From a virus (lineage: Duplodnaviria > Heunggongvirae > Uroviricota > Caudoviricetes): a stretch of DNA of 28,293 nucleotides. Positions 1 through 23,989 of this stretch are shown one piece after another. The DNA lies in the IMG/VR virus record IMGVR_UViG_2667527592_000009, positions 1-28,293 of that record; one strand, 5' to 3'. Within the stretch, counting starts at the first letter, position 1. Every line of letters starts with the position of its first letter. The notes under the pieces were generated by a model that saw only the letters and a list, made by a program, of their open reading frames with translations, did not search any database and was not told the origin of the DNA. A program made the translations under genes and the position numbers.

Positions 1-1077
<1,077 letters not shown>

Positions 1078-1507
1078 TTACATATTGTTTTCTTATTGTG
1101 ATCAAAAACAACAAATTAATAACAAATAATGTGAGGGATAAGAATTGGGTTGAAAGGAAATGAATAATTAAAACAATATATTAAGTGTGCTTATACTCTT
1201 TTTCGAACTGGTGGCATTTGTTTAAATGCTATTTAAACTGCTTTTTCAGAGTTCAACTTACTGAGTTCCGTGTCGACTAATGTGAGTAAGATCAATCGCA
1301 TCCAACCTATGTTACTTGATGGAATCGATAACAATATTAATGAATATACAGATTCCGGGAAGGCTGGCTATGGGGGCAAATTATTCTCTTTCTGGCAACG
1401 GGTAAATAACAGTGACCATTTGTCGAGAAGCTGATACTGAGCTGAGGGATACTGTATATGTCTGGACTGTAATTGGATGAATTCTATTCAGGGCGGGTCA
1501 GGACCAA

Positions 1508-1531
1508 TAAAAAAGCCCGCATCAGCGGGCT
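1508..1531 (-). terminator. Rho-independent terminator (minus strand)
   Basis: Hairpin GCCCGC-atca-GCGGGC (1515-1530) followed on the minus strand by a run of 6 T (plus-strand A-run 1509-1514); lies about 130 nt downstream of the tmRNA-like 3' end copy. Confidence 0.5.
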
Positions 1532-1660
1532 TTAATGTCATAGGGAGTCGCGACTCCGTTGCGTATCCTTTTTTGTCTCCTCACCGTCTGGTCGGTGTCC
1601 TGCTGAGACTTATAACTTCCTGTTTTTGTTGGTGTAGTCCTTACACCGTCCAATCATGAT

Positions 1661-1705
1661 TGGTGGAGCTGGCGGGAGTTGAACCCGCGTCCGAAATTCC
1701 TACAT
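1661..1705 (-). other. Prophage attachment-site core: 45-nt copy of the 3' end of tmRNA (ssrA) including CCA; not a complete gene
   Basis: Minus-strand sequence ATGTAGGAATTTCGGACGCGGGTTCAACTCCCGCCAGCTCCACCA matches the recalled T-arm/acceptor 3' end of E. coli tmRNA; sequence 5' of it (higher coordinates) does not continue as tmRNA, so this is a partial att copy adjacent to int. Confidence 0.6.
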
Positions 1706-1820
1706 ACCATTTTCACTATAACAAAAACATTAACTTGCGTTTAAAATCATCAAGTTAGTATTATCTTATGTTTGTCCGTTTTACTCATTTTTAATGCTCT
1801 GTCGCCAATCTGTCGCCACA

Positions 1821-2471
1821 TTATCCGCTGCTTGAGTTGAAATCTGTGGGTTTACGGAGATTAGATCTTATGGTTTTTTCAGCGATACGAATAGTCGAAA
1901 ATTTATGCAGGTTCATCAGTGCTATACAAATCCCAAGTGCAAAAAAGTAGCTGGACATTCCTAATCTTTGCATATCAGTAAGTTTATTAATTTTCTCTAA
2001 AATATGTTGGGTTACTAATCCTTCGTATACAAAAGGTATGGAAGTTATAAAACCGCCAATAAAATAGAATGTTAAGCTTATCAGCTTTATAGATTTTCTA
2101 TATATCCAAAAGCGATATCTTTTTTTTGTCCATTTAAATATTTGTTTTTCACTACTAATAGAAATTAGTTTTTGACACTTGCTATAGTTATCAATGTCAT
2201 TAACTGGATCGTTAACACCTAAAAGAATCTCTCTCTGTTCTGGAGTTAGGTTCTTATCTTTTGTTATTGCAGCAATACCATAATTATATGCAACTTTCTT
2301 GATTTTGGGATCTTCAGTATTCTTATATAGATTGTATGCAAACTCGCTAATGTTTTTGCGCGAGTTGAAAATCTTATCTTTGGGGAAAACCCAGCCGGAT
2401 CTTACCGCGAGCATCTGTATGATCGGGGTAATTATCGCGACAGAATACTTAATTATCTCGTTTATGTTCAT
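1821..2471 (-). CDS. Hypothetical membrane protein (AT-rich moron between att and int)
   Basis: 216-aa ORF, visibly AT-rich; two C-terminal hydrophobic segments (SIKLISLTFYFIGGFITSIPFVY and SSYFFALGICIALMNL); start 14 nt downstream of int stop on the same strand. Confidence 0.5.
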   Translation of the reverse strand: MNINEIIKYSVAIITPIIQMLAVRSGWVFPKDKIFNSRKNISEFAYNLYKNTEDPKIKKVAYNYGIAAITKDKNLTPEQREILLGVNDPVNDIDNYSKCQKLISISSEKQIFKWTKKRYRFWIYRKSIKLISLTFYFIGGFITSIPFVYEGLVTQHILEKINKLTDMQRLGMSSYFFALGICIALMNLHKFSTIRIAEKTIRSNLRKPTDFNSSSG

Positions 2472-2485
2472 GATCCATTGTTTAC

Positions 2486-3502
2486 TTAAATTAAGTTATA
2501 AAGAGGGTTTTTTGTTACTGCATCCTCCAGGTGGTCTGGAGAGAAGTGTGCATAAATCATCGTCATTTTAATATCTGAGTGCCCTAAAATATCACGTAAA
2601 ACGAGTATGTTCCCACCGTTCATCATAAAATGGCTGGCAAATGTATGGCGCAGGACGTGGGTGCATTGGCCTTCCGGTAGTTCAATACCGGCCCGTTTTA
2701 CCGCCCGTTCAAAGGCTTTTCTGCATGGTGTGAATAATTTCCCTCGGTTTTTGGGTAGCTCGTTGTACAGATCCTGAGATATCGGTACGGTACGGTTTTT
2801 TTTACCCTTGGTCTTTGTATAGGTAATCCGGTATTTCGATAGTTGATGGCCCTGCAGGTTTTCAGCTTCACTCCAACGAGCACCGGTTGCTAGGCATATT
2901 TTTGCAATCATTAGCAGACTGGGGCTTTGAGAATCAGCACAGGCATCCAGCAGACGTTTAATTTCCTCCGGGGTTAGGAACGCCAGTTCACCCTCCGTAA
3001 TTTTAAATGTTGGAAGCCCGGCAAGCGGGTTGGGGGCTGACCAGTGGCCCAGCTTTTTCAGTGTACCAAAAACAGATGATAGGTTGCGCTGTTCAAGGTT
3101 TACCGTGCGGGGCTTAACGGGTGACATGAACGAGCCGTCTTCATTTTGGACCTCCCCCTTTAATCTGGCTTCCCGATATTTTGTGAAATCACCTGCTGTC
3201 AGCTCAGAGGCGATGGGATCGCCTAGACCATTACAGATAATTCTAAGTTTCGCCATCAGGCGTTTGGGGTCTGCGAGTGTTTGACCATATAGGGAATACC
3301 ACTGCTCAATCACTTCTGATAATCGCCGCCGATCTTCCTTCTCACCAAGCCATGGCTTTTTGTTTACTTCGTTCATGGTGAAGTTTTCGAATGCTATGGC
3401 TTCGCCTTTCGTGGCAAATTGCTTACGCACGCGCTTGCCATTGCGTCCATTGGGATAGCACTCACACAACCATTTTCCGTTCGGCTGTTTTCTGATGGTC
3501 AT
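2486..3502 (-). CDS. int: Tyrosine site-specific integrase, P2/186 family
   Basis: 338-aa ORF with C-terminal catalytic motifs (GARWSEA, HVLRHTFASHF, LGHS...MIYAHF); sits next to the att core and is transcribed toward it; 1-nt gap to upstream cI. Confidence 0.9.
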   Translation of the reverse strand: MTIRKQPNGKWLCECYPNGRNGKRVRKQFATKGEAIAFENFTMNEVNKKPWLGEKEDRRRLSEVIEQWYSLYGQTLADPKRLMAKLRIICNGLGDPIASELTAGDFTKYREARLKGEVQNEDGSFMSPVKPRTVNLEQRNLSSVFGTLKKLGHWSAPNPLAGLPTFKITEGELAFLTPEEIKRLLDACADSQSPSLLMIAKICLATGARWSEAENLQGHQLSKYRITYTKTKGKKNRTVPISQDLYNELPKNRGKLFTPCRKAFERAVKRAGIELPEGQCTHVLRHTFASHFMMNGGNILVLRDILGHSDIKMTMIYAHFSPDHLEDAVTKNPLYNLI

Positions 3503-3503
3503 A

Positions 3504-4136
3504 TCAAAGGCTCTTAATGATTTTCAGTGCACGGCCTACTACCTCAATGTCATCCAGGCCACACTCAAACGATGAATCATCCTGATGCACTACTAATCTG
3601 TTTCCCGGGAGTCGAGTCAATTTAACAATGCTTTTTATCCCGTCGATATCGACTAACCACATACCATTCACTGGTGGTGTTTGGTTGCGATCTATTAAAT
3701 AAGAATCACCAGAAGTAGTCACCAGCAGTAGGTTGCTTGAGTCTGAGGGGAGTATGCTGCTATCAATGATTGCTTTTCCAGCATCGACCAATAAACCACC
3801 GTTGAGAGTCGCCTTGTCAATTTCAGGAGATACTAGTTCAGAAAGAGGTACAACCTTGCTGGAGTTCACGGAATTGATATTTTTTTGGGGTTCAATGTTT
3901 GGACCTGGCTCCCCCTGTCCGGTGGTTAGCCACAGTAAAGAAACTCCTGTTTCCAAGGCGCACTGAATCACCCACTCTGCAGGAAAACTATCTCTTAAGT
4001 ATCTGTTTGCCATGGTGCTTTTTGATGCGCCTAAGTGATCGCAAAGTTGCTGTCTGGACTTGAAATCATAGGCTGCCATTAGTCTATGGATAGCTTCTCT
4101 TCCCCCTGTATTCTCTCCAGCCTTTACCTGTATCAT
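3504..4136 (-). CDS. cI: CI-type immunity repressor (186-like)
   Basis: 210-aa ORF immediately upstream of int on the same strand and divergent from the apl/cII lytic operon; helix-turn-helix-like N-terminal region; RBS AGGA upstream of ATG at 4136. Confidence 0.7.
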   Translation of the reverse strand: MIQVKAGENTGGREAIHRLMAAYDFKSRQQLCDHLGASKSTMANRYLRDSFPAEWVIQCALETGVSLLWLTTGQGEPGPNIEPQKNINSVNSSKVVPLSELVSPEIDKATLNGGLLVDAGKAIIDSSILPSDSSNLLLVTTSGDSYLIDRNQTPPVNGMWLVDIDGIKSIVKLTRLPGNRLVVHQDDSSFECGLDDIEVVGRALKIIKSL

Positions 4137-4255: not shown

Positions 4256-4498
4256 ATGAGCACTGATATTTCAATTCGTGTACCAAAAGAGATGGCTACG
4301 CCTGCAGAGTTCGCGGAATGGGAAGGTATCTCCCGCGGCTCCGTGTATCAAAAAATTCACCATGGTCAGCTTGCTAAATACATGGTCAAGAAAGAAAAAA
4401 ATAAAGGCCGCGTAAACCTTCGTTATCTGATGTACAAAACTGATCAGGTCCGTGAATCCCTCGGTCATTCCAACTTCCGCGTCATTGTTGGTAAGTAA
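4256..4498 (+). CDS. apl: Apl-like excisionase/transcriptional regulator (Cox/Apl functional analogue)
   Basis: 80-aa first gene of the rightward operon, HTH-like segment TPAEFAEWEGISRGSVYQKI; RBS GGGAG upstream. Confidence 0.55.
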   Translation: MSTDISIRVPKEMATPAEFAEWEGISRGSVYQKIHHGQLAKYMVKKEKNKGRVNLRYLMYKTDQVRESLGHSNFRVIVGK

Positions 4499-4530: not shown

Positions 4531-5040
4531 ATGTTTGATTACAAGATTTCCAAACATCCGCATTTCGATGAAGCCTGTAGGGCTTTTGCACTGCGTCACA
4601 ACCTGGTGCAACTGGCAGAACGTGCAGGCATGAATGTACAGATTCTGCGGAACAAGCTGAACCCAGCTCAGCCTCATTTATTAACCGCACCAGAAATCTG
4701 GCTGCTTACCGATCTGACTGAAGATTCAACGCTGGTAGATGGTTTTCTGGCACAGATTCATTGTCTGCCATGTGTACCGATTAATGAGGTGGCAAAAGAG
4801 AAACTGCCACATTACGTCATGAGTGCAACCGCAGAGATCGGGCGTGTTGCTGCAGGTGCGGTATCTGGCGATGTAAAAACCTGTGCCGGTCGTCGTGATG
4901 CTATCAGCAGCATTAACTCTGTAACACGACTGATGGCGCTGGCGGCTGTTTCATTGCAGGCCCGTTTACAGGCTAATCCTGCGATGGCGAGTGCAGTTGA
5001 TACCGTGACTGGCCTCGGTGCTTCATTCGGTTTGCTGTGA
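4531..5040 (+). CDS. cII: CII-like lysogeny-establishment regulator (186 CII-like)
   Basis: 169-aa ORF directly after apl, size and position as in phage 186; RBS AAGGGGG upstream. Confidence 0.55.
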
Positions 5041-11665: not shown

Positions 11666-13426
11666 ATGGTCGCAACTTCTAAATTACTACTTTTGAAAGT
11701 CGCAGCATCTCGTGCTGACTTGGCAAAATTGCTAGATGTTAAGTTGGTGTTTTTAACGAATATTCTTTACAGAATTGGTACTGATAATCAGTATAAAGAT
11801 TTCTCTATTCCAAAAAAAGGTAAGGGAGTCAGATTGATTTCTGCGCCAGAAGATAGTTTGAAAGATCTCCAAAGACGAATAGCCGATCTTTTAATGGAGT
11901 GTAGAGATGAAACTTTCAAAATTAAAAAAATTAAAAACAATTACTCCTTTGGTTTTGAAAGAAATAAGTCAATAATTTCCAATGCTTTCAGACATCGTGG
12001 GAAAAATATAATACTCAATATTGATCTTAAGGATTTTTTCAAAAGCTTTAATTTTGGGCGAGTGAGAGGGTACTTCCTATCCAATAGGGATTTCTTATTA
12101 AATCCGATTGTCGCCACTACTTTAGCTAAAGCCGCATGCTATAAGGGAAGTTTGCCTCAGGGTAGCCCGTGTTCTCCAGTGATAACAAACTTAATTTGTA
12201 GCATTATGGATATTAGATTAGCTAAATTAGCAAAGAGTTTAGGTTGTTCATATAGTCGTTATGCCGATGACATCACGTTTTCAACTAATAAAAAAGAATT
12301 TCCTACCGATTTGGCAATATCTCTTCCTGAGGGGGTTGTCTTGGGGAGCATTCTTGTCAGTGAAATAAAACGTGCTGGTTTTGATATTAATGATGCTAAA
12401 ACAAGGATCTCGTACAAATCCACGAGACAAGAAGTTACGGGACTTACTATAAATAGATTTGTTAACGTTGATAGGAAATATTCGAATAAAACAAGAGCAT
12501 TAGCTCATTCACTTTATAGTAAGGGAGAATATAAGCTACCTGATGAAGATGGTAAGCTAGTCGTGGGGAGTATCGAAAAACTAGAGGGAAGATTTGGGTT
12601 TATTGACCAGATTGATAAATTTAATAACATACAAGATAAAATAAGTAAACAGCCTGAAAAATATGCGCCTATTCATATTACATTAAAAAACTACAGGTTA
12701 AAGCTGAATGTACGAGAGAAGGCATATAGTAAATTTATTTACTACAAGTTTTTTCATGGACATGCTTCCCCGACAATCTTGACAGAAGGCAAAACTGATC
12801 GAGTATATTTAAAATCAGCTATTCGTTCACTTTCTGCCAAATTTCCTGAGTTGCTCAAGAAAAGCACAGACGGTAAAGGAAATGATATCAACTTGAATAT
12901 TTTTAAATCTGATGAGAAGTCAAGTTATTTTATTAATATGTCTGGAGGTAGCGCAGATCTTAAAAAATTCATCGAAAGATATATGGATGAATATTCAAGC
13001 TACTATGGAAGCATTCCTAAGCACCCGGTTATCATGGTATTGGACAACGATTCTGGTTCTAATGAGATTTTGAATTTCCTTAAAAATAATGTTAAGGGCT
13101 GCCCCGATGATACCAATAAAATGAGAAAAATGAGATTTATCCATGTCTTTAAAAATCTCTATATCATTCTAACGCCTTTAAGTGCTACTGGTGAGCAGAC
13201 TGCGATGGAAGATCTTTTTACTCATGATGTATTATCAACTATTCTTGGTGGTAAAAAATTTAACAAAAAGAACGATGGGGACTCAAAAACTGAATATGGG
13301 AAACATGTTTTCTCTGTGAAAGTAGTTAGGGATAAAAAACGAAAAGTTGATTTTAGTGGTTTTGAAATAATACTCAACACTTTTAAAGATGTTTTTGAAC
13401 ATTATAAAAAAATATGCAGCATATAG
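11666..13426 (+). CDS. ret: Retron reverse transcriptase fused to C-terminal TOPRIM (OLD-like) domain, Retron-Ec67 type
   Basis: 586 aa; RT motifs [25 protein letters not shown] (nt 12260-12271), VTGLTIN; C-terminal TOPRIM signatures ILTEGKTD and VLDNDSGS; AT-rich. Confidence 0.85.
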
Positions 13427-22288: not shown

Positions 22289-23989
22289 TTATTCAAGGTG
22301 ATTTGAAAGAGTAATTAATGGCTCAATCGGTTGGAACGCTTTTAAGGATGTTAATATGTTTTTAACTTCCTTTGATACGATAGATAACGGGTTGTCTGTT
22401 ACAGATAAGTAGGTGGTTAAATCTTGACCTGAAACACGGATAACATGTGGTAATATCGCAGTTATAACTGGTGTCCAAAGGTCGATTAAATCATCCAGAG
22501 AGTTATTTTTAGATAATGCTGTATCATATTTATATTTTATTTTCTTCTTGTTCAAAGGTTTATCTGTTAATTCTTCAAGTATTTCTCCGATGACGGATAT
22601 TAAAAAGAATCGAGACTTTAAATTTTGGAGGAATAATAAGTTATCCTCATCTACTTTAATTTTATTCTCTTTTGCACGGATTTGAGATTTTACTTTTTCT
22701 ATAGCTTTTGAAATAGTGTAAGCACATAAAATATGCTGGGCTTTCGAATCATGAAAGGCATTGTCATAGGCTGATTTTGTATCGAAAACGTAGTTTTTAC
22801 CTCTATTGGCGCTAACATAATCCCCATGTAACGCTATCAGCGGTTGAGCAACAGACTCAATGCCAAATAAAGAACCAGTATTTTCGAAGCCGCGTTTCAG
22901 TGAATATGTATAACCAAGAGTGGAAAATTCTTCTGCCACCTGTTTTTGTTCTGTGCTGTTAGAGTAGTGATCCCAGGTTGTAATATGATTCTGAGTATTA
23001 TTATACTGGACTATTTTTTTTACTTTGTCCGCATCATTACATTCAATAACCTTACAAAGGACTTTTAGGCCATCTAATTTTTGTATATCTTGAACTGAAC
23101 CAATAGAACCAGTGGTTTGAGCTCCATTTATGATTGAAACTCCTTCCAACAACCCTTTTTCTTTGTTGAATTTTGTTGTTAGGATTGATACACCATTGTT
23201 AAAGACAAAGAAGTCTTTTGGGGATGTTTCTGCGGTATTCTTAATTGATGAGTTTATTTTTCTTCTCTTATTTAATCCCATGAACCCCCTATAATTAGCA
23301 GAAAATAATTCTGCTCCATAATTTTTGTATAAATAATTTAGCCAAGTGCCGTTTGCAAAGCCAACATGTGAAGTCCAGCCATCACCTTGTACAGAATTTA
23401 TAAGTTCGCCATTGAACTTTATATTGTCAGTCACAACAATTTGTTGTGATAGCGCAATATACAATTTTTCAAGACTATTAACACCAAGTTCTCTGTAAGT
23501 TACCTCAATTTCTTTGTCTGCAAATCTACCTGCTAGATAGTCACGACAAGTTTCAAGCTCAGTTTTAACCTGCTCAGATTCGGCACAATTATGGATATAT
23601 AATAATTCAACAGCTTCAATTTCGTTATCATCAATTAATTTTCTAACCTCAGAAATTTTTGCTCTTAATTTTGCATTTGGAGACTCTCCTGAGCCTGCCA
23701 TAATCCACGCTAAAGCAGTGTTTAAGTCAGAAGCTTTATTTGCAGGCGCAACTATTTTAAGTGCTTGCTGATTGCAATAGTAACCCTGAGCAATAAATAA
23801 CGTTGAATTAATTACGGTAATGAAGTCTATTTTCTTATCGTTTCCACCATCAGTAAGTCCATCAGATGCTAGCTTATCAAAATCGGATTCATCTAAGTAA
23901 AGACCTAATGACCATAAAAGATGTGCGTTACTAGTCCCGTACTTTTCTAACAGGGAAGTTTTATTTTGCAGTTGTCTTAAGTGTTCCAT
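22289..23989 (-). CDS. Large AT-rich hypothetical protein, AIPR-like abortive-infection candidate (defence moron)
   Basis: 566-aa minus-strand ORF interrupting the otherwise contiguous S-V late-gene order; markedly AT-rich; own terminator; AIPR-family call is from recalled sequence character and is unverified. Confidence 0.5.
   Translation of the reverse strand: MEHLRQLQNKTSLLEKYGTSNAHLLWSLGLYLDESDFDKLASDGLTDGGNDKKIDFITVINSTLFIAQGYYCNQQALKIVAPANKASDLNTALAWIMAGSGESPNAKLRAKISEVRKLIDDNEIEAVELLYIHNCAESEQVKTELETCRDYLAGRFADKEIEVTYRELGVNSLEKLYIALSQQIVVTDNIKFNGELINSVQGDGWTSHVGFANGTWLNYLYKNYGAELFSANYRGFMGLNKRRKINSSIKNTAETSPKDFFVFNNGVSILTTKFNKEKGLLEGVSIINGAQTTGSIGSVQDIQKLDGLKVLCKVIECNDADKVKKIVQYNNTQNHITTWDHYSNSTEQKQVAEEFSTLGYTYSLKRGFENTGSLFGIESVAQPLIALHGDYVSANRGKNYVFDTKSAYDNAFHDSKAQHILCAYTISKAIEKVKSQIRAKENKIKVDEDNLLFLQNLKSRFFLISVIGEILEELTDKPLNKKKIKYKYDTALSKNNSLDDLIDLWTPVITAILPHVIRVSGQDLTTYLSVTDNPLSIVSKEVKNILTSLKAFQPIEPLITLSNHLE

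What the first reader, a model, noticed from the sequence alone, without database searches (positions are those of the whole stretch)
1706..2485. AT-rich membrane-protein moron between att and int
A 216-aa ORF with a soluble N-terminal domain and two C-terminal transmembrane helices occupies the att-int interval and ends 14 nt downstream of int, so it is likely co-transcribed with cI-int in the lysogen. Its composition is far more AT-rich than neighbouring phage genes. Lysogen-expressed membrane proteins at this position are typical of superinfection exclusion, Abi or toxin functions, and I do not recognise the family.
Basis: partly seen in the sequence, partly recalled or inferred. Interest (0 to 1): 0.55.

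Follow-up and report, generated by a model that had tools for sequence, protein, structure and literature searches.

The report
Unknown membrane-protein cassette behind prophage integrase
A real but uncharacterised three-helix inner-membrane protein gene sits as a swappable, promoter-less cassette directly behind the integrase of a Fels-2/186-like prophage, in a slot where sister prophages carry known anti-phage genes, so it is a reasonable but untested candidate for a new phage-exclusion protein.

Summary
A 216-aa ORF (window 1821-2471, minus strand) starts 14 nt after the int stop and ends 113 nt before a 45-nt ssrA 3' copy (att core, 1663-1707). Its GC is 33%, against 47% for int. It is a real gene: dN/dS is 0.07-0.19 and about 55 homologue clusters exist.

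It has three hydrophobic helices, not two. The "soluble domain" is a 98-aa basic domain between TM1 and TM2, predicted cytoplasmic.

Homology with related phages breaks inside the last int codons and resumes 2-3 nt past the ORF's stop codon. The ORF is therefore a discrete cassette (about 1819-2490).

In 5,426 complete E. coli genomes this int type occurs in at least 95. The slot is empty in 19 and holds GapS1 in 15, a 401-aa protein in 11, a 353-aa membrane protein in 8, HNH in 4 and this ORF in 2.

Four homologues at 31-82% identity also follow cI or cI-int in 186-like prophages. Others are stranded solo copies, one directly beside ssrA.

A 2026 paper already names the P2 int-att interval a minor defence hotspot. 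The most likely function is lysogen-expressed anti-phage exclusion at the inner membrane. This is unproven.

The parts
1821..2471 (-). ORF216: 216-aa predicted inner-membrane protein. RefSeq annotates a 197-aa form, WP_231253729.1, starting at Met20.
   Evidence: ORF list. 28 close homologue clusters and 55 representative clusters. PHROG 21256, E = 2.7e-69. dN/dS 0.07-0.19. AF2 pLDDT 81. The N-terminus is conserved across the family, which supports the long form.
2385..2459 (-). TM1 (residues about 5-29). The short acidic N-tail is predicted periplasmic.
   Evidence: Hydropathy. The segment is conserved in 49 members, with median hydropathy 1.40; the N-tail has median 0 K/R and 2 D/E.
2091..2384 (-). 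98-aa basic helical domain (residues 30-127), predicted cytoplasmic. Conserved motifs are G-Y-A-A-L-T-G-D..L-T..Q-R..L-L and F-x-W-K..R....Y-R.
1902..2090 (-). TM2 (residues 128-150), a short 16-19-aa loop predicted periplasmic, and TM3 (residues 170-190).
   Evidence: Hydropathy and family statistics. Helices H122-152 and H166-203 in the model.
1819..2490 (-). Variable cassette: the last int codons after '...VTKNPL', a 14-nt spacer and ORF216 through its stop codon.
   Evidence: blastn against 9 related loci without this ORF. Homology ends 5-18 nt before the int stop and resumes at window 1818-1819. Empty slots have 22-28 nt here. Junction sequences.
1708..1818 (.). Conserved phage attP arm. 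It includes two TCTGTCGCCA direct repeats 11 nt apart (1798-1807 and 1809-1818) that abut the cassette.
   Evidence: 79-94% identity to sister phages whatever the cargo. Repeats. That they are Int arm or Apl sites is inferred from the 186 attP layout (PMC7498355).
1663..1707 (-). att core: a 45-nt copy of the ssrA (tmRNA) 3' end.
   Evidence: Identical to the ssrA 3' end of E. coli LR-33 and divergent immediately after. No full tmRNA in the window.
1512..1533 (-). Native ssrA terminator. It is the first terminator-like site downstream of ORF216 on its strand.
   Evidence: Terminator scan. The host flank is shared with LS4 and LR-33.
2486..3502 (-). int: tyrosine integrase, about 94% identical to the Fels-2 integrase.
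   Evidence: Pfam Int_N and Phage_integrase. tblastn against phages.
3504..4136 (-). cI: 186-type immunity repressor, first gene of the leftward lysogenic operon.
   Evidence: Pfam Phage_CI_repr and Phage_CI_C. In 186, int lies on the leftward transcript downstream of cI (PMC7708051).

Best explanation
ORF216 is a horizontally exchanged, single-gene accessory cassette of a Fels-2/186-like, ssrA-integrating prophage. It is fused without a promoter of its own onto the 3' end of the cI-int lysogenic operon, so it is made in the lysogen together with the repressor.

The product is a small inner-membrane protein. The predicted layout is N-terminus out, TM1, a 98-aa basic cytoplasmic domain, a TM2-TM3 hairpin and C-terminus in.

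The most likely role is to protect the lysogen, and hence the prophage, from other phages. Almost all non-membrane mass faces the cytoplasm, and the neighbouring cassette types are single-protein sensor-effectors. I therefore favour a single-protein abortive or dormancy mechanism: the cytoplasmic domain senses an infection cue and the TM helices perturb the inner membrane. This is about 0.3 of the 0.5 total. The alternative, a block of genome entry at the inner membrane (classical superinfection exclusion), takes about 0.2.

Shown: gene reality, cassette boundaries, presence/absence polymorphism, linkage to cI operons across genera, and defence genes in the same slot.

Inferred: expression in the lysogen, topology, and any anti-phage activity or mechanism.
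For: 1. Cassette behaviour. There are sharp homology breaks at int codon about 335 and right after the ORF stop. Alternative contents of the slot in E. coli are: empty 19, GapS1 15, 401-aa protein 11, 353-aa membrane protein 8, HNH 4 and ORF216 2, of at least 95 genomes.
2. Defence genes in the same slot. GapS1 is an experimentally validated anti-phage protein, including its E. coli homologues. The HNH cargo hits PADLOC HNH models. PMC13586616 lists int-att of P2 as a minor defence hotspot holding 3% of P2 systems, and reports that 6 of 8 tested unknown-gene loci from P4 satellite defence loci protected against phages.
3. This prophage is already armed at both classical P2 hotspots, with a retron RT-Toprim at 11666-13426 and AbiU/AIPR at 22289-23989.
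4. Linkage to lysogenic operons recurs in different arrangements: cI-int-X in Klebsiella (52% identity) and Cronobacter (82%), cI-X in a metagenomic phage (33%), and cI-156aa-235aa-X in Rahnella (31%).
5. Operon fusion. The gap is 1-14 nt, with no promoter or terminator between int and X. In 186, int is on the leftward lysogenic transcript.
6. A 27%-identical relative lies beside BrxR and a Rosmer system in Tn7-like cargo, a defence-island setting.
7. The gene is retained after prophage decay: a 4-kb remnant in LR-33 and a solo copy 280 nt downstream of intact ssrA in an Orbaceae genome. It is under purifying selection.
8. The 3-TM architecture with positive-inside bias is conserved.

Against: Hotspots also carry non-defence cargo. 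The slot is only a minor hotspot (3% of P2 systems).

Several homologues are solo chromosomal genes among metabolic genes, with no phage or defence neighbours.

The gene is absent from all 50,697 deposited phage genomes and all plasmids searched. Carriage in a viable, packaged phage is therefore shown only for other cassettes, in Cartapus and RE-2010.

Expression is inferred, not measured. AT-rich DNA may be H-NS-silenced.
Confidence: 0.5

Rival explanations
1. Lysogenic-conversion or host-fitness factor unrelated to phages. A small inner-membrane protein would change envelope physiology, for example stress, ion or antimicrobial tolerance or colonisation, and would be kept because it benefits the host.
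For: Solo chromosomal copies sit among metabolic genes without phage or defence neighbours in Klebsiella-like genomes and in Orbaceae. The gene is retained after prophage loss. It is under purifying selection. It has no defence-family signature.
Against: The identifiable alternatives in the same slot are GapS1, a validated anti-phage protein, and an HNH nuclease matching a PADLOC HNH model. The distant homologue lies in a BrxR/Rosmer island. No transporter, enzyme or known envelope-stress domain was detected.
Confidence: 0.2
2. Phage life-cycle accessory. A membrane protein made with cI would tune lysogeny maintenance, induction or integration, for example by modulating the membrane proteases FtsH or RseP that degrade 186 CII, or by acting on Int or excision.
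For: The gene is tightly linked to cI and cI-int operons in four arrangements. Its amino-acid divergence tracks that of cI rather than int: 82% and 52% against cI 66% and 52% and int 94% and 93%. 186 CII is degraded by the membrane proteases FtsH and RseP (abstract of PMC7708051).
Against: Closely related viable phages lack any gene in the slot, or carry unrelated nuclease or other cargo there. The gene is therefore dispensable for the switch and for integration. Solo copies persist without any phage. It lies within a swapping cassette, not the conserved regulatory core.
Confidence: 0.1
3. Membrane toxin or addiction-type selfish cassette, such as a holin-like or small pore-forming protein. 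Its leaky or conditional toxicity would stabilise the element or kill cells under particular conditions, with no dedicated anti-phage sensing.
For: It is a small multi-TM protein on a mobile, AT-rich cassette. In the GAPS screen, three cargo candidates from GMT islands (a different class of mobile element) were toxic on expression.
Against: No partner antitoxin or immunity ORF lies in the cassette. The 113 nt to the att core is conserved attP arm. Constitutive co-expression with cI would be hard to tolerate for an unregulated toxin. Solo copies are stably kept. dN/dS is low.
Confidence: 0.1
4. Non-functional or mis-called ORF: AT-rich junk DNA between int and att.
For: No function is known. 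RefSeq calls a different, shorter start. The Shine-Dalgarno sequence is weak.
Against: The stop-free run is 220 codons against a maximum of 167 in 1000 shuffles. dN/dS is 0.07-0.19. About 55 clusters share length and 3-TM architecture down to about 20% identity. The AF2 domain model is confident, pLDDT 91.9.
Confidence: 0.02

Closest known systems
Int-att defence hotspot of P2-like prophages (PMC13586616, NAR 2026), alongside the classical P2 hotspots (Rousset 2022, PMC9122126; Vassallo 2022, PMC9519451)
   Same: [quoted passage not shown] Contents vary between conserved flanks. Known defence genes, GapS1 and HNH, occupy the slot in sister prophages.
   Different: The paper reports the hotspot statistically, as 3% of P2 systems. 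This particular gene family is not recognised by PADLOC or any library searched, and has not been tested. Here the cassette boundaries are mapped to the base, and the cassette is shown to replace the last int codons.
Prophage superinfection-exclusion membrane proteins (P22 SieA/SieB, T4 Imm, HK97 gp15; K139 Glo in a P2-related Vibrio phage); comparison from general knowledge
   Same: It is a small membrane protein made by the resident prophage from or beside the immunity region. It is a single gene, dispensable for the phage and patchily distributed.
   Different: No sequence or profile similarity was found; Pfam returned no significant hit. Only about 25 residues are predicted to face the periplasm, with the bulk in the cytoplasm. 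Exclusion activity is untested.
Single-protein or membrane-effector abortive-infection systems (lambda RexB, TM effectors of CBASS, retron and other systems in PADLOC; GapS1 as a single-protein sensor-effector)
   Same: It is a stand-alone gene with a putative sensor domain plus TM helices. It shares a slot with GapS1, which senses a capsid protein and induces dormancy.
   Different: No PADLOC model matches; the only hits at E <= 0.01 were single-member and far from significance (Csm5 0.0012, PDC-S49 0.0044, a 4TM 'Effector' model 0.0064, one of 49 members each). No trigger, toxicity or depolarisation data exist.
PD-T7-4 (Vassallo et al. 2022)
   Same: It is a defence gene reported to 'often overlap an integrase gene', that is, tightly appended to int.
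   Different: There is no sequence match; PADLOC, the defence-model library searched, gave no hit.
PHROG family phrog_21256
   Same: Clear sequence membership: E = 2.7e-69 over residues 5-207.
   Different: The PHROG has no annotated function, so membership adds no mechanism.

Membership tests
Cargo of the P2-family int-att hotspot (PMC13586616) | Lies between the integrase gene and the att site of a P2-like prophage | tested here: met
   int 2486-3502, ORF 1821-2471, att core 1663-1707. The prophage is of 186/Fels-2 type.
Cargo of the P2-family int-att hotspot (PMC13586616) | Content varies among related elements between conserved flanks | tested here: met
   Six slot states with sharp homology breaks. 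Counts in 5,426 genomes.
Cargo of the P2-family int-att hotspot (PMC13586616) | The gene itself confers anti-phage protection | not testable with these tools
   Needs plaque and infection assays. No defence-model hit.
Moron (strict sense: autonomous extra gene with its own promoter and terminator, atypical composition) | Present in some but not all close relatives; atypical base composition | tested here: met
   2 of at least 95 genomes. GC 0.33 against 0.47.
Moron (strict sense: autonomous extra gene with its own promoter and terminator, atypical composition) | Own promoter upstream and own terminator downstream | tested here: not met
   No minus-strand promoter-like or terminator-like site between int and the ORF or just after it. 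The next terminator is the host ssrA terminator. This is a consensus scan only.
Known superinfection-exclusion families (SieB, Imm and others in Pfam) | Profile match to the family | tested here: not met
   No Pfam hit above threshold for the query or any of 49 members.
Known superinfection-exclusion families (SieB, Imm and others in Pfam) | Blocks genome entry of superinfecting phage | not testable with these tools
   Requires DNA-entry or potassium-efflux assays.
Known defence or Abi proteins (PADLOC-DB v2) | Profile match to any defence-system component | tested here: not met
   0 families for the query at E <= 1. Only chance-level single hits among 49 members.
Winged-helix (HTH plus beta-hairpin) domains | Structural similarity of the cytoplasmic domain to wHTH proteins | tested here: not met
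PHROG 21256 | HMM match over most of the profile | tested here: met
   E = 2.7e-69, residues 5-207 on profile positions 7-209 of 222.
Type II toxin-antitoxin or holin-antiholin pairs | Adjacent cognate partner gene | tested here: not met
   The cassette holds one ORF, and the flanks are int and the conserved attP arm.

The most novel reading that the evidence does not exclude
ORF216 founds a new family of single-protein, inner-membrane anti-phage proteins. It would combine a cytoplasmic 98-aa domain of unmatched fold with three TM helices. It would spread as a promoter-less cassette that recombines onto the 3' end of the integrase gene of Fels-2/186-like phages, so that defence is hard-wired to the cI lysogenic transcript. 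Hosts would keep it even after the prophage has decayed.
Probability: 0.4. Interest if true: 0.55.

Novelty: new member of a known kind. Interest (0 to 1): 0.4.

Why it matters
If the protein does exclude phages, it adds a new, very compact membrane-based defence family with no detectable relatives. It would also give a clean example of accessory defence genes being expressed by appending them to the repressor-integrase operon rather than by carrying their own regulation.

The base-precise cassette boundaries give a simple rule: everything between '...VTKNPL' of int and the TCTGTCGCCA repeats of attP is cargo. That rule could be used to harvest further candidate defence genes from thousands of Fels-2/186-like prophages. 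At least 36 of the 95 or more E. coli genomes carrying this int were not matched by any of the six junction probes. The 353-aa membrane protein and the 401-aa protein are also uncharacterised.

If it is not a defence gene, it is an ordinary orphan prophage gene.

Tried and rejected
- Sequence and family searches gave nothing informative: Pfam, NCBIfam and PADLOC on the query and on 49 family members, and PDB sequence search with full-length and domain profiles, which returned only designed helical proteins.
- I considered that the domain is a winged helix, from its secondary-structure order, and rejected this for lack of any wHTH hit.
- tblastn against 50,697 phage genomes and 72,556 plasmids found no copy.
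- The profile search of the 5.8-billion-protein set with A2 added essentially nothing new (one further weak hit), because of a candidate cap. The scan of GTDB species representatives found one degraded copy; the A2 alignment was too diverse for that tool.
- hhalign of the family against the other membrane cargo, the 353-aa protein, showed them unrelated (probability 0.25%, reported as Probab=0.25).
- Literature: no mention of WP_231253729. No supplementary files are held for the 2026 hotspot paper. The SopEPhi paper is not held.
- The depositors' 'RES, NAD+ binding' label on the 401-aa cargo could not be confirmed with Pfam or PADLOC.
- Rejected as explanations: a tRNA or tmRNA gene in the interval, a toxin-antitoxin pair (no partner ORF) and a chance ORF.

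Full report
**What is there.** The left end of the window holds csiD/glaH (1-978, minus strand; Pfam CsiD 1.7e-151), about 680 nt of host DNA, and then a prophage end.
- Window 1663-1707 is identical to the last 45 nt of ssrA and diverges immediately afterwards. ARAGORN and Rfam find no complete tmRNA in the window. This is therefore the displaced 3' fragment of ssrA at the int-proximal junction.
- Reading the minus strand leftwards from the switch region gives cI (3504-4136), int (2486-3502), a 14-nt spacer, a 216-aa ORF (1821-2471), 113 nt of phage DNA, the att core, and the native ssrA terminator (1533-1512).
- apl (4256-4498) and cII (4531-5040; its homologues in related loci carry Pfam Phage_CP76) lie on the other strand.
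- The integrase is about 94% identical to that of Fels-2. Fels-2 and SopEPhi are known to integrate into ssrA (PMC3448106). The element is a Fels-2/186-like member of the P2 family.

**Check of the observation.**
- The ORF is not a chance feature. The interval has a 220-codon stop-free run. In 1000 dinucleotide-preserving shuffles the mean was 69, sd 16 and maximum 167.
- GC is 0.33 (GC3 0.33), against 0.47 for int, 0.45 for cI and 0.49 for the window. The same contrast is seen in the Klebsiella and Cronobacter copies.
- dN/dS is 0.07 against the Cronobacter copy and 0.19 between the Cronobacter and Klebsiella copies. Synonymous sites are saturated against Klebsiella.
- One correction is needed. 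Hydropathy shows three hydrophobic segments, at about residues 5-29, 128-150 and 170-190. AlphaFold models all three as long helices (pLDDT 81). RefSeq's 197-aa call (WP_231253729.1) starts at Met20 and would remove TM1. The N-terminal segment is conserved throughout the family.

**The protein.**
- Across 49 family members the layout is constant: a roughly 9-residue acidic N-tail (median 0 K/R), TM1, a 98-residue basic domain (median 19 K/R against 11 D/E), TM2, a 16-residue loop, TM3 and a basic C-tail.
- By the positive-inside rule this predicts N-out and C-in, with almost all soluble mass in the cytoplasm. This is an inference.
- The domain alone folds with high confidence (pLDDT 91.9): a long helical hairpin, two short helices and a beta-hairpin.
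- The one clear hit is PHROG 21256, of unknown function (2.7e-69).

**It is a cassette.**
- blastn of the cI-to-att region against nine related loci without this ORF shows homology running through int and stopping 5-18 nt before its stop codon. Homology resumes at window 1818-1819, that is 2-3 nt past the ORF's stop codon.
- The restart point abuts two TCTGTCGCCA repeats spaced 11 nt apart in the attP arm.
- Each cargo type brings its own last few int codons after '...VTKNPL'.
- The alternative contents are:
  - nothing, 22-28 nt (E. coli LS4; phages MLG42 and SEN8);
  - a 353-aa protein with N-terminal TM helices (sequence);
  - GapS1;
  - an HNH protein (PADLOC and Pfam HNH);
  - a 401-aa protein in the isolated phages Cartapus and RE-2010.
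- The Cartapus and RE-2010 genomes show that cargo in this slot is part of the deposited phage genome, and so presumably packaged.
- Every cargo gene is on the int strand and starts 5-40 nt after int.
- Junction-spanning queries against 5,426 complete E. coli genomes give at least 95 genomes with this int type. Of these, 19 are empty, 15 hold GapS1, 11 the 401-aa gene, 8 the 353-aa gene, 4 HNH and 2 ORF216 (SCU-172 and LR-33). The remainder did not match any of these six junction probes over at least 80% of their length.

**Where relatives live.**
- The family is small: 28 clusters at 90% identity and 55 representative clusters. It is spread over Enterobacterales and Orbales, with more distant, GC-rich members.
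- The Klebsiella (52% identity) and Cronobacter (82%) copies again follow cI-int in 186-like prophages, at different chromosomal sites, with 1-14 nt gaps.
- A 33% relative directly follows a cI gene with no int.
- A 31% Rahnella relative lies in cI-156aa-235aa-X, next to cII and gpA.
- Other copies are stranded:
  - a 4-kb prophage remnant in LR-33;
  - an int fragment plus a 5'-truncated copy in a Buttiauxella MAG;
  - solo genes in Klebsiella-like chromosomes;
  - in an Orbaceae genome, a solo copy 280 nt downstream of, and co-oriented with, an intact tmRNA gene. That is the geometry expected if everything between ssrA and the cargo had been deleted.
- The gene is usually well below its locus in GC.
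- A 27% relative sits next to BrxR, downstream of a Rosmer (RmrT) system in TniQ-associated cargo, followed by three large unknown genes.
- No copy exists in the deposited phage genomes or in plasmids.

**How it most likely works.**
- Expression is inferred to come from the leftward lysogenic transcript. No promoter-like or terminator-like site lies on the minus strand between cI and the ORF's end. The first terminator is the host ssrA terminator.
- In phage 186, int sits downstream of cI on that transcript; an int::lacZ fusion is used as the leftward reporter (PMC7708051).
- The slot is named a minor defence hotspot of P2 elements (3% of P2 systems, PMC13586616). The same paper reports that 6 of 8 unknown-gene loci from P4 satellite defence loci were protective.
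- GapS1, the second most common state of this slot after the empty one, is a validated capsid-triggered dormancy system.
- This prophage also carries a type I-C retron RT-Toprim and an AbiU/AIPR gene in the two classical P2 hotspots.
- Together this makes an anti-phage role the best-supported reading, at about 0.5. I favour a single-protein sensor-effector acting on the inner membrane from the cytoplasmic side over a DNA-entry block, because only about 25 residues are predicted to be periplasmic.
- None of this is demonstrated. The rivals remain open: a host-fitness factor (0.2), a lysogeny or induction accessory (0.1) and a toxin or selfish cassette (0.1). A non-gene is effectively excluded.

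**Comparison and novelty.**
- The kind of thing, variable cargo in a prophage hotspot next to int, is known. This exact location was published in 2026.
- What is new here is modest. One uncharacterised protein family (PHROG 21256), with no relatives and no fold match in the PDB and viral-structure libraries that could be searched, is placed in that slot. The cassette is delimited to the base and shown to be a promoter-less extension of the cI-int operon. The family's repeated linkage to cI operons, and its survival as stranded copies, are documented.
- I rate it a new member of a known kind, with interest 0.4. It is a good candidate for a plaque-assay screen, not a surprise.

Noticed in passing
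window 11666-13426 (+): A 586-aa reverse transcriptase matches the PADLOC retron RT-Toprim type I-C model (E = 1e-212; Pfam RVT_1). It lies in the gpA-gpQ hotspot of the prophage. Rfam found no msr/msd RNA at gathering threshold.
   Followed up: partly
window 22289-23989 (-): A 566-aa AIPR/AbiU-like protein (Pfam AIPR 1.6e-25, PADLOC AbiU 1.7e-24) is inserted among the tail genes, the second classical P2 hotspot. The prophage therefore carries cargo in three hotspots.
   Followed up: partly
window 2486-2500 and junctions in L012-L017: The integrase C-terminus changes with the cargo: ...VTKNPL followed by YNLI, NYIE, YNL, NFIYLSNNM, FNLK or HNLNWHR. Each cassette supplies the last int codons and the stop. 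Empty-slot integrases are 341 aa, against 338 aa here.
   Followed up: partly
L001 4310-4903 and L032 3161-3754 (RefSeq WP_231253729.1): RefSeq annotates the gene as 197 aa starting at Met20. This would delete the conserved N-terminal transmembrane helix and is probably a mis-called start.
   Followed up: yes
L013 1891-2952 (E. coli AR_0017): Another uncharacterised cargo of the same slot is a 353-aa protein with N-terminal TM helices. It has no Pfam or PADLOC hit and is unrelated to ORF216 by hhalign. It is present in 8 complete E. coli genomes.
   Followed up: partly
L017 3527-4732 (phage Cartapus) and L016 (RE-2010): A 401-aa cargo is annotated by depositors as 'putative RES protein, NAD+ binding domain'. 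Pfam and PADLOC gave no hit, so the label is unconfirmed. It is present in 11 complete E. coli genomes, including LF82.
   Followed up: partly
L031 6356-7645 (Orbaceae bacterium ESL0727): An intact tmRNA gene is followed 280 nt later by a 39%-identical homologue of ORF216 on the same strand, with no phage genes nearby. It looks like cargo left behind by a decayed ssrA-integrated element.
   Followed up: partly
L024 1-14609 (metagenome contig SRR30681683_2326): A 27%-identical homologue lies between a divergently transcribed BrxR-type regulator and three large genes (519, 275 and more than 1500 aa) with no Pfam or PADLOC hit. These sit beside a Rosmer (RmrT plus HTH/M78) system and TniQ/AAA_22 genes. 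This may be an unknown BrxR-controlled multi-gene system in Tn7-like cargo.
   Followed up: partly
L030 4807-8303 (Rahnella inusitata): The lysogenic operon of a 186-like prophage reads cI (291 aa, tandem CI_repr) - 156 aa - 235 aa - homologue - 125 aa. No integrase is detectable, and the extra genes have no hits.
   Followed up: no
L032 1-2816 (E. coli SCU-172): Immediately beyond the att end of the ORF216-bearing prophage lies a second integrase-domain gene and a NACHT-domain protein. This suggests tandem islands at ssrA.
   Followed up: no
window 979-1662: csiD/glaH lies only about 680 nt from the ssrA-derived att fragment, as in E. coli LS4. The CP4-57/ypjA region seen next to this att in other strains (LR-33, ETEC4089) is absent here.
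   Followed up: no
L001 7445-7927; L017 5020-5502: A conserved 160-aa gene, 'putative exonuclease' in Cartapus, lies just across attP from the cargo slot on the same strand. In the circular phage the leftward transcript could run across attP into it.
   Followed up: no
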